A stretch of DNA of 64,000 nt, taken from NCBI RefSeq assembly GCF_036507355.1, contig NZ_AP027877.1, one strand, 5' to 3'. Source of the stretch: Escherichia coli (GTDB lineage Bacteria; Pseudomonadota; Gammaproteobacteria; Enterobacterales; Enterobacteriaceae). The translations under genes were made by a program, and so were the position numbers. The notes under the pieces are model-generated. The model was not told where the DNA came from and did not search any database. It worked only from the letters and a program-made list of their open reading frames with translations. Shown here in pieces: positions 55,202 to 55,439 of the stretch; positions within the stretch are counted from its first letter, which is position 1; each line of letters opens with the position of its first letter.

Positions 55202-55247
55202 AGCCCATCCTTTGTTATCAACTTGTTATTTGCGTTGATAAACACAA

Positions 55248-55263
55248 AGCAAGGGGTGTGCCA
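55248..55263 (-). promoter_or_regulatory. Sigma-54 (-24/-12) promoter of prpBCDE
   Basis: Reverse strand reads TGGCAC-ACCCC-TTGCT (consensus TGGCAC-N5-TTGCW), 47 bp upstream of the prpB start, next to the sigma-54 activator gene prpR. Confidence 0.7.
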
Positions 55264-55439
55264 CAATTGCCTTAATAAAATTAAATCTTTAATTTCAATT
55301 TGTTAGAGATAAAGTCATGAACTAATCCGCAAATATGCGTTTCAGTTAACGTTTCAGGCAATGTTTCACCGCGTTTCATTGCAACAATTATGAAACAAGG
55401 CTAAACCCAATATTCGGTTTCTTAACTTTGCGGTGCGCT

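What the first reader, a model, noticed from the sequence alone, without database searches (positions are those of the whole stretch)
55202..55439. Sigma-54 promoter for prpBCDE readable in the prpR-prpB intergenic region
The reverse strand carries TGGCAC-N5-TTGCT 47 bp upstream of prpB, next to the divergently transcribed sigma-54 activator gene prpR. This fits the known dependence of propionate catabolism on PrpR and sigma-54.
Basis: partly seen in the sequence, partly recalled or inferred. Interest (0 to 1): 0.25.

Follow-up and report, generated by a model that had tools for sequence, protein, structure and literature searches.

The report
Known sigma-54 promoter of prpBCDE
The motif is real and is the already described sigma-54 promoter that switches on the E. 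coli propionate-breakdown operon prpBCDE under control of the neighbouring activator PrpR, so the finding is correct but ordinary.

Summary
TGGCACaccccTTGCT lies on the minus strand at 55263..55248, 47 nt before the prpB ATG (55201). It sits in the 238-bp spacer between prpB and the divergent prpR gene (55440..57026).

The same 17-mer, GTGGCACACCCCTTGCT, is site OS01 of the E. coli sigma-54 ChIP-seq map (PMC4591121). RpoN holoenzyme also binds this spacer in vitro (PMC8743547). In Salmonella, prpBCDE needs PrpR, sigma-54 and IHF.

Checks made here:
- The site ties for the top score among 127,968 positions, using a weight matrix built without it.
- Nine other species with divergent prpR-prpB all carry a GG-N10-GC element, in the prpB sense, 40-59 nt from the ATG.
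- Five of the window's 41 GTTTCA/TGAAAC PrpR half-sites cluster 75-133 bp upstream.
- A 77% A+T spacer lies between that cluster and the promoter.
- PrpR has the sigma-54 interaction domain with a GAFTGS loop.
- No sigma-70-like promoter was found.

Minor points seen along the way: the E. coli enhancer lacks the contiguous 14-bp palindrome reported for Salmonella, and the prpB 5' UTR holds an invariant block with a perfect IHF consensus.

Verdict: already known, low interest.

The parts
55248..55264 (-). -24/-12 sigma-54 promoter element GTGGCACACCCCTTGCT. GG is at 55262-55261 and GC at 55250-55249.
   Evidence: sequence. (weight-matrix score 14.97, tied top of the window). (1 of 2000 shuffles). 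Identical to ChIP-seq site OS01 of PMC4591121.
55237..55237 (-). Predicted transcription start, 19 nt downstream of the motif centre at 55256. It gives a 36-nt 5' UTR. This is inferred, not mapped.
   Evidence: Rule and the 'Distance 36' value from PMC4591121 Table 1 footnotes.
55202..55236 (-). prpB 5' UTR with Shine-Dalgarno AAGGA (55212..55208). It holds an invariant block ATAACAAGTTGATAACAA, the inverted repeat TTATCAAC/GTTGATAA (55215-55222 / 55234-55241), and a perfect IHF consensus TATCAACTTGTTA (55216-55228, + strand).
   Evidence: The RNA fold is not significant (z = -0.97).
55265..55335 (.). A+T-rich spacer between enhancer and promoter (77% A+T against 47% for the window). It contains the IHF-like site TTTCAATTTGTTA at 55293-55305 (one mismatch to WATCAANNNNTTR) and is the presumed bending region.
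   Evidence: The IHF requirement comes from the literature (PMC5566544).
55338..55396 (.). Enhancer (upstream activating sequence) of PrpR half-sites. On the + strand, GTTTCA starts at 55339, 55351, 55363 and 55373, and TGAAAC at 55391. This includes the conserved spaced inverted repeat GTTTCA-N12-TGAAAC (55373-55396).
   Evidence: 5 of the window's 41 hexamers lie here, and no other 70-bp stretch holds more than 1; conserved across species. The published consensus CGTTTCATGAAACG is given in PMC4987338 Table 1.
55440..57026 (+). prpR, the sigma-54 enhancer-binding activator (528 aa). It has PrpR_N, an AAA+ Sigma54_activat domain, Walker A GETGTGKE at 246, the GAFTGS loop at 301-306, and a C-terminal HTH_8.
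54311..55201 (-). prpB, 2-methylisocitrate lyase, the first gene of the operon driven by the promoter.
49575..54155 (-). prpC (52986-54155), prpD (51501-52952) and prpE (49575-51461), the rest of the operon.
   Evidence: annotation of the 99.8%-identical record mapped to the window; Pfam.

Best explanation

How it most likely works:
1. RNA polymerase carrying sigma-54 sits on the -24 GG / -12 GC element (55264..55248, minus strand) as a closed complex that cannot start on its own.
2. PrpR is made from the divergent gene. It binds the cluster of GTTTCA/TGAAAC half-sites about 75-133 bp upstream of the -24 TGGCAC hexamer (55338..55396).
3. When PrpR binds 2-methylcitrate, which PrpE and PrpC make from propionate, its AAA+ domain assembles and hydrolyses ATP.
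4. The A+T-rich spacer in between, probably bent by IHF, loops the DNA so that the PrpR GAFTGS loop touches sigma-54.
5. The promoter opens and transcription starts near 55237, giving a roughly 36-nt leader before prpB.
6. cAMP-CRP adds catabolite control, according to the literature.

What is shown here: the motif and its position, its conservation, the enhancer cluster, and the domains of PrpR.
What is taken from papers: sigma-54 binding in E. coli; the dependence on rpoN, prpR and ihf and the 2-methylcitrate signal in Salmonella; the CRP effect.
What is inferred: the exact start site, and which sequence IHF binds in E. coli.
For: Motif and position.

Weight matrix built without the site: score 14.97, rank 29 of 42 against the 41 bound training sites, and tied top of 127,968 window positions.

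Spacer shuffles: 1 of 2000 reach the observed score.

Cross-species test. All 9 other species with divergent prpR-prpB carry a GG-N10-GC element scoring 14.6-18.7 in the prpB sense, 40-59 nt from the ATG. These are E. albertii, Citrobacter, two Photorhabdus, two Oxalobacteraceae, two Burkholderiales MAGs and Xanthomonas massiliensis. The opposite strand never exceeds 6.2, and shuffles reach the score in 0-1 of 2000.

Enhancer: 5 of 41 half-site hexamers lie within 58 bp, and similar clusters occur in 8 of the 9 species.

Variation within E. coli: in 4 strains it falls in the spacer and at non-consensus positions, never in GG/GC or in the half-sites.

PrpR: Sigma54_activat 1.5e-65, PrpR_N 8.1e-52, HTH_8; GAFTGS and Walker A.

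No sigma-70-like promoter in 55100-55550.

Literature: ChIP-seq OS01 with the identical 17-mer (PMC4591121); gSELEX peak (PMC8743547); Salmonella ChIP-chip and 45-fold rpoN dependence (PMC3844500); PrpR enhancer consensus and the 2-methylcitrate signal (PMC4987338); IHF and CRP requirements (PMC5566544; PMC9452892).
Against: Nothing contradicts the explanation. Its limits are these:
- The weight-matrix score is only middling. Four intragenic positions in the window score about as high, so sequence alone would not prove function.
- The contiguous 14-bp PrpR palindrome reported for Salmonella is absent here; the best match has 3 mismatches.
- The IHF-like site between enhancer and promoter has one mismatch, while the only perfect IHF consensus lies downstream of the promoter.
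- No good CRP consensus is visible; the best has 3 mismatches of 10.
- The start site is not mapped.
- Direct rpoN-dependence of transcription in E. coli itself was not found in the papers I could read. The three primary papers, PMC94363, PMC1070369 and PMC1287719, are not held.
Confidence: 0.95

Rival explanations
1. The motif is a sigma-54 binding site that is bound but transcriptionally inert, or simply a chance match. On this reading, prpB is transcribed from another promoter.
For: Many sigma-54 sites in E. coli are intragenic and of unknown function (PMC4591121). Four intragenic positions in this window score as high as the prpB site. At window level, 17 of 100 shuffles give an exact consensus match.
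Against: The site is intergenic, in the sense orientation, and 47 nt before the first gene of the operon. It is adjacent to a dedicated enhancer-binding protein gene and to that protein's half-site cluster. An equivalent element sits at the same distance in 9 of 9 other species, including beta-proteobacteria whose spacers are otherwise unalignable. No sigma-70-like promoter was found. The Salmonella operon is 45-fold rpoN-dependent.
Confidence: 0.03
2. prpBCDE in E. coli is driven mainly by a CRP-dependent sigma-70 promoter in the same spacer, and the sigma-54 element plays only a minor part.
For: The literature reports that PprpB depends on cAMP-CRP (PMC5566544; PMC9452892). In 2015 EcoCyc listed the E. 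coli sigma-54 promoter only as predicted.
Against: No -35/-10 pair was found on either strand of 55100-55550. There is no good CRP consensus in the spacer. PMC9452892 says the CRP site overlaps the PrpR operator, which suggests CRP acts through the enhancer rather than through a separate promoter. The conservation pattern protects the -24/-12 bases.
Confidence: 0.02

Closest known systems
PprpB of Escherichia coli K-12 (sigma-54 site OS01 of Bonocora et al. 2015, PMC4591121; the promoter used in the pPro propionate-inducible vectors of Lee and Keasling 2005)
   Same: The 17-nt -24/-12 element GTGGCACACCCCTTGCT is identical, as are the flanking genes. The predicted start-to-ATG distance is also the same, 36 nt.
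   Different: Nothing of substance. This window comes from a strain whose spacer is 95-99% identical to most E. coli and 100% identical to O157:H7 TR01. One base just downstream of -12 (55243, G on the prpB-sense strand) differs from three other strains sampled, which have C.
PprpB / PrpR system of Salmonella enterica LT2 (Palacios and Escalante-Semerena 2000, 2004; Samuels et al. 2013, PMC3844500)
   Same: Both have a divergent prpR-prpBCDE layout, a sigma-54 -24/-12 element directly upstream of prpB, and an upstream enhancer of GTTTCA/TGAAAC half-sites. The IHF requirement and the 2-methylcitrate co-activator come from the literature.
   Different: The Salmonella element reads TGGCATAGCCTTTGCTTT, against TGGCACACCCCTTGCTTT here. 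The reported Salmonella enhancer consensus is a contiguous palindrome, CGTTTCATGAAACG. E. coli has no such 14-mer (best match 3 mismatches). Instead it has one GTTTCA-N12-TGAAAC pair plus three further half-sites, all in the orientation of the pair's TGAAAC arm, following it at steps of 10, 12 and 12 bp.
Other enhancer-dependent sigma-54 catabolic promoters of E. coli, e.g. atoD (CTGGCACTCCCCTTGCT, activator AtoC)
   Same: The same promoter class. The core differs at only 2 of 17 positions: the 5'-flanking base and the first base of the N5 spacer. Both have a dedicated activator gene nearby.
   Different: The activator, its signal and its enhancer sequence are different. PrpR senses a metabolite through its PrpR_N domain rather than through a two-component receiver.

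Membership tests
Sigma-54 (-24/-12) promoter | GG and GC dinucleotides exactly 10 nt apart within TGGCAC-N5-TTGCW | tested here: met
   TGGCACACCCCTTGCT at 55263..55248 with no mismatch.
Sigma-54 (-24/-12) promoter | Weight-matrix score within the range of experimentally bound sites | tested here: met
   Leave-one-out matrix from 41 ChIP-seq sites. Score 14.97, against a training range of 8.6-21.6 and a median of 15.9; rank 29 of 42.
Sigma-54 (-24/-12) promoter | Sense orientation, a short distance upstream of a gene, with no sigma-70 promoter to explain expression | tested here: met
   47 nt from the ATG. No sigma-70-like sites in 55100-55550.
Sigma-54 (-24/-12) promoter | Conservation of the element and its position in orthologous loci | tested here: met
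   9 of 9 species, scores 14.6-18.7, 40-59 nt from the ATG. The other strand scores at most 6.2. Shuffles reach the score in 0-1 of 2000.
Sigma-54 (-24/-12) promoter | Binding by sigma-54 holoenzyme | not testable with these tools
   Literature only: ChIP-seq OS01 with the identical 17-mer (PMC4591121) and gSELEX (PMC8743547).
Sigma-54 (-24/-12) promoter | Transcription abolished without rpoN | not testable with these tools
   Shown for Salmonella: 45-fold difference between wild type and the rpoN deletion (PMC3844500), and Palacios and Escalante-Semerena 2000 as cited. I did not find this for E. coli in the papers held.
Enhancer-binding-protein (bEBP) dependent activation | A cognate activator with an AAA+ sigma-54 interaction domain, Walker A and a GAFTGA loop | tested here: met
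   Sigma54_activat E = 1.5e-65. GETGTGKE at 246. The loop is GAFTGS at 301-306, a one-residue variant shared by enteric PrpR proteins, while most beta-proteobacterial orthologues have GAFTGA.
Enhancer-binding-protein (bEBP) dependent activation | Activator binding sites roughly 80-150 bp upstream of the promoter | tested here: met
   A half-site cluster at 55338-55396, 75-133 bp upstream of the -24 TGGCAC hexamer. It holds 5 of the window's 41 hexamers.
PrpR regulon (prp locus) | Divergent prpR and prpBCDE genes, and a PrpR_N sensor domain | tested here: met
   (PrpR_N E = 8.1e-52).
PrpR regulon (prp locus) | Enhancer matching the published consensus CGTTTCATGAAACG | tested here: inconclusive
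   No contiguous 14-mer; the best matches have 3 mismatches, at 55338 and 55350. Half-sites are abundant and conserved, and a GTTTCA-N12-TGAAAC pair is invariant in E. coli, E. albertii and Citrobacter.
IHF-assisted DNA looping | An IHF consensus WATCAANNNNTTR between enhancer and promoter | tested here: inconclusive
   A one-mismatch match, TTTCAATTTGTTA, at 55293-55305 in a 77% A+T spacer. Perfect matches occur in that interval in 4 of the 9 other species. The only perfect match in the E. coli spacer is downstream of the promoter, at 55216-55228.
CRP-dependent catabolite control | TGTGA-N6-TCACA in the regulatory region | tested here: not met
   The best match has 3 mismatches of 10 (55231-55246), and the others have at least 4. 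The literature nevertheless reports a CRP site overlapping the PrpR operator (PMC9452892). I could not read the primary paper.

The most novel reading that the evidence does not exclude
Two details are not accounted for by the textbook picture.

(a) The E. coli enhancer has lost the contiguous PrpR palindrome that Citrobacter and Photorhabdus keep, and that is the reported consensus for Salmonella. It consists instead of one spaced inverted pair plus tandem half-sites. This may explain why the Salmonella system is reported to express about three times more strongly (PMC5566544).

(b) An 18-nt block of the prpB leader, ATAACAAGTTGATAACAA, lies downstream of the predicted start. It is invariant in all E. 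coli sampled, in E. albertii and in Citrobacter, and it contains a perfect IHF consensus. It could be a functional element, for example a promoter-downstream IHF site or a translational operator next to the Shine-Dalgarno sequence.
Probability: 0.15. Interest if true: 0.3.

Novelty: already known. Interest (0 to 1): 0.07.

Why it matters
As a discovery it matters little. The promoter, its activator and its signal have been known since 1997-2005. The exact site is in the published sigma-54 ChIP-seq map, and the promoter is used as a propionate-inducible expression tool and biosensor.

The check does have some value. It also gives window coordinates for the parts of the regulatory region: the promoter, the predicted start, the enhancer half-sites and the A+T-rich bend region.

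Tried and rejected
- Primary papers. I tried to read Palacios and Escalante-Semerena 2000 (PMC94363), Lee et al. 2005 (PMC1070369) and Lee and Keasling 2005 (PMC1287719). None is held, so their content is cited only through later open-access papers.
- Rfam. A scan of 54900-55700 at E <= 1 found nothing.
- RNA structure. The predicted leader folds into the TTATCAAC/GTTGATAA hairpin, but no better than shuffles (z = -0.97). An RNA-structure reading of the conserved leader block is therefore not supported.
- CRP. A consensus scan found no convincing site.
- Salmonella enhancer. A search for the 14-bp palindrome found only 3-mismatch matches.
- Genome-collection scan. Salmonella was not among them, so its sequence could not be aligned directly.
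- PrpR-like genes without prpB. Five such genes (about 60% identity) in Janthinobacterium, Massilia and Herbaspirillum are not next to prpB. I left them out of the conservation test.
- A correction. My translation of prpC used 53070-54239. That is the right frame but the wrong ends; the annotated gene is 52986-54155. The family assignment is unaffected.

Full report
**What is in the sequence.**
The stretch 55202..55439 is exactly the spacer between two divergent genes. On the minus strand, an ORF of 296 aa starts at 55201 (54311..55201). On the plus strand, a 528-aa protein starts at ATG 55440 (55440..57026). The window is E. coli. An 901-bp stretch spanning the spacer (54900-55800) is 99.8% identical to several complete genomes, in which the two genes are annotated prpB (methylisocitrate lyase) and prpR. 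prpC, prpD and prpE follow prpB. Pfam agrees:
- PrpB is a PEP_mutase/isocitrate-lyase family protein.
- PrpR carries PrpR_N (8.1e-52), Sigma54_activat (1.5e-65), an AAA lid and HTH_8.
- The next three genes are a citrate synthase, an MmgE/PrpD dehydratase and an AMP-forming ligase.

Read in the prpB sense, the spacer contains ...caattgTGGCACaccccTTGCTttgtg... at 55263..55248. Its last base is 47 nt before the A of the prpB ATG.

**Is it more than chance?**
The exact pattern TGGCAC-N5-TTGCW occurs once in the 64 kb, against 0.19 expected. 17 of 100 shuffles contain at least one match, so at window level the match alone means little.

I built a weight matrix from the 41 other intergenic, sense-oriented sigma-54 sites in Table 1 of Bonocora et al. 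2015 (PMC4591121), leaving the prpB site out. The prpB site scores 14.97. That is below the training median of 15.9 and ranks 29 of 42, but it ties for the best of the 127,968 positions in the window. Four intragenic positions score 14.0-15.0, so a matrix scan alone does not single out the promoter. Context does. Within the 238-bp spacer, only 1 of 2000 shuffles reaches the observed score, and the best hit on the other strand scores 5.0.

**Comparative test.**
A scan of one genome per species with PrpR returned 14 full-length orthologues. Nine of them have prpB divergent from prpR:
- Escherichia albertii
- Citrobacter werkmanii
- two Photorhabdus species
- Rugamonas rivuli and an Oxalobacteraceae MAG
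- a Burkholderiaceae MAG and a Burkholderiales MAG
- Xanthomonas massiliensis

In all nine, the best matrix hit in the prpB sense is a GG-N10-GC element. It scores 14.6-18.7 and ends 40-59 nt before the ATG. The opposite strand never exceeds 6.2, and 0-1 of 2000 shuffles reach the observed scores. Outside this element and the half-sites described below, the beta-proteobacterial and Xanthomonas spacers share no obvious sequence with the E. coli one. The recurrence therefore reflects selection rather than shared ancestry of the whole spacer.

Within E. coli, the spacer is present in 5218 of 5426 complete genomes. I aligned four strains. Differences fall in the A+T-rich spacer, at one position of the N5 spacer of the element, and at one base after -12. 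None falls in the GG or GC bases or in the half-sites.

**The rest of the regulatory region.**
*Enhancer.* Upstream of the promoter, in the prpB sense, the sequence reads GTTTCA-N12-TGAAAC-gcgg-TGAAAC-attgcc-TGAAAC-gttaac-TGAAAC (55396..55339). These five hexamers are 5 of only 41 in the whole window, and no other 70-bp stretch has more than one. They lie 75-133 bp upstream of the -24 TGGCAC hexamer, the usual distance for an enhancer-binding protein. The published PrpR enhancer consensus is CGTTTCATGAAACG (Palacios and Escalante-Semerena 2004, quoted in PMC4987338 Table 1), so these are its half-sites. Clusters of the same half-sites lie 47-180 nt upstream of the promoter element in 8 of the 9 other species. 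Contiguous GTTTCATGAAAC is present in Citrobacter and Photorhabdus cinerea. E. coli itself has no contiguous 14-mer; its best matches have 3 mismatches.

*Spacer and IHF.* Between enhancer and promoter lies a stretch of 77% A+T (55265-55335, against 47% for the window). It contains an IHF-like site with one mismatch, TTTCAATTTGTTA, at 55293-55305. Four of the other species have perfect IHF consensus matches in the equivalent interval.

*Other checks.*
- PrpR has Walker A GETGTGKE (246) and a GAFTGS loop (301-306). This is a one-residue variant of GAFTGA that all enteric orthologues share.
- No sigma-70-like promoter and no terminator-like site was found in 55100-55550.
- No Rfam family matches.

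**What is already known.**
Bonocora et al. 2015 list as their first intergenic sigma-54 ChIP-seq site (OS01) the motif GTGGCACACCCCTTGCT upstream of prpB (b0331). Its occupancy is 17-fold above threshold, and the predicted start is 36 nt before the gene. The window carries the identical 17-mer at 55264..55248. Their rule places the start 19 nt downstream of the motif centre, which gives 55237, again 36 nt from the ATG. Their supplementary conservation table also includes the prpB site.

Shimada et al. 2021 found an RpoN-holoenzyme genomic SELEX peak in the prpR/prpB spacer. For Salmonella, Samuels et al. 2013 report sigma-54 ChIP-chip enrichment at TGGCATAGCCTTTGCTTT upstream of prpB, and 45-fold higher prpBCDE expression in wild type than in an rpoN deletion. 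They list prpBCDE among four operons previously shown experimentally to be sigma-54 dependent.

Reviews summarise the mechanism:
- PrpR, 2-methylcitrate as co-activator, sigma-54 and IHF are all required.
- PrpR binds an upstream enhancer-like element and contacts the polymerase by DNA looping.
- cAMP-CRP is needed at both PprpR and PprpB.

The promoter is also the basis of the pPro propionate-inducible vectors. I could not open the three primary papers. In 2015 EcoCyc still flagged the E. coli promoter as predicted rather than confirmed. In the texts I could read, binding is shown in E. coli, while rpoN-dependent transcription is shown in Salmonella.

**Mechanism.**
The best explanation is the textbook one:
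1. The sigma-54 holoenzyme forms a closed complex on the -24/-12 element.
2. PrpR bound at 55338..55396 is activated by 2-methylcitrate.
3. The A+T-rich spacer, presumably bent by IHF, brings PrpR to the polymerase.
4. ATP hydrolysis opens the promoter.
5. Transcription starts near 55237 and runs through prpB, prpC, prpD and prpE.

The motif, its conservation, the enhancer and the activator's domains are shown here. Binding, the genetic requirements and the signal come from the literature. The start site and the IHF site in E. coli are inferred.

Two rivals have little support: an inert or chance sigma-54 site, and a mainly sigma-70/CRP promoter. There is no -35/-10 pair and no good CRP consensus. 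The conservation pattern protects exactly the sigma-54 bases.

**Small things not covered by the standard account.**
The E. coli enhancer is degenerate compared with the contiguous palindrome kept by Citrobacter and Photorhabdus. This might relate to the weaker output reported for the E. coli system compared with the Salmonella one.

The prpB leader contains an 18-nt block, ATAACAAGTTGATAACAA, that is invariant in the four E. coli strains, E. albertii and Citrobacter. It includes a perfect IHF consensus (55216-55228) and an 8-bp inverted repeat. The predicted RNA hairpin is no more stable than shuffled controls. Three close relatives are too few to call the block functional.

**Verdict.**
The feature is already known, and interest is low.

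Noticed in passing
window 27538-27554 (+): TGGGCATACAAAATGCA is the identical 17-mer of sigma-54 ChIP-seq site OA01 of Bonocora et al. 2015 (FAT 12). It lies in the mhpE-mhpT spacer and points antisense to the mhp genes. It is a published bound site with no known target.
   Followed up: partly
window 53469-53485 (-): A sigma-54-like element, TTGGCGCGATTGGTGCA (matrix score 14.6, nearly equal to the prpB promoter), lies inside prpC in the sense orientation. It is not in the tables of Bonocora et al., and a text search of the eight supplementary files held did not find it.
   Followed up: partly
window 16497-16513 (+) and 16605-16621 (+): Two sigma-54-like elements (scores 14.1 and 15.0, the latter the window's top score) lie 108 bp apart in the sense orientation. 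They are inside a gene annotated as a MASE1-domain sensor histidine kinase, next to a uhpC-like gene.
   Followed up: no
window 55214-55241: The prpB leader holds an 8-bp inverted repeat, TTATCAAC/GTTGATAA. It also holds a perfect IHF consensus, TATCAACTTGTTA (55216-55228), downstream of the predicted start. The 18-nt block ATAACAAGTTGATAACAA is invariant in 4 E. coli strains, E. albertii and Citrobacter. The RNA fold is not significant (z = -0.97).
   Followed up: partly
window 55338-55396; L003 2393-2438; L004 2377-2399: E. coli and E. albertii lack the contiguous PrpR palindrome (C)GTTTCATGAAAC(G) that Citrobacter werkmanii and Photorhabdus cinerea have. All three enteric species (E. coli, E. 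albertii, Citrobacter) share an invariant GTTTCA-N12-TGAAAC pair.
   Followed up: partly
window 56340-56357 (PrpR residues 301-306): The sigma-54-contacting loop of PrpR reads GAFTGS in E. coli, E. albertii, Citrobacter and Photorhabdus. Most beta-proteobacterial orthologues and the Xanthomonas orthologue have the canonical GAFTGA.
   Followed up: partly
L005-L008 and L011 (Janthinobacterium, Massilia, Herbaspirillum): PrpR-like genes of about 60% identity are not adjacent to prpB or prpC. L011 still has a strong sigma-54 element (score 17.9, at 2256 on the minus strand) with GTTTCA/TGAAAC half-sites upstream of it. L006 has a sigma-54 element at 74 on the minus strand. Their target genes were not identified.
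   Followed up: no
whole window: The IHF consensus WATCAANNNNTTR occurs 8 times, against 2.4 expected. None of 100 shuffles reached 8.
   Followed up: no
window 6865-9619: The window is collinear with E. coli O157:H7 TR01 at about 99% identity. This block is the exception: it falls in the ehaB autotransporter region (a pseudogene in TR01) and aligns only in fragments.
   Followed up: no
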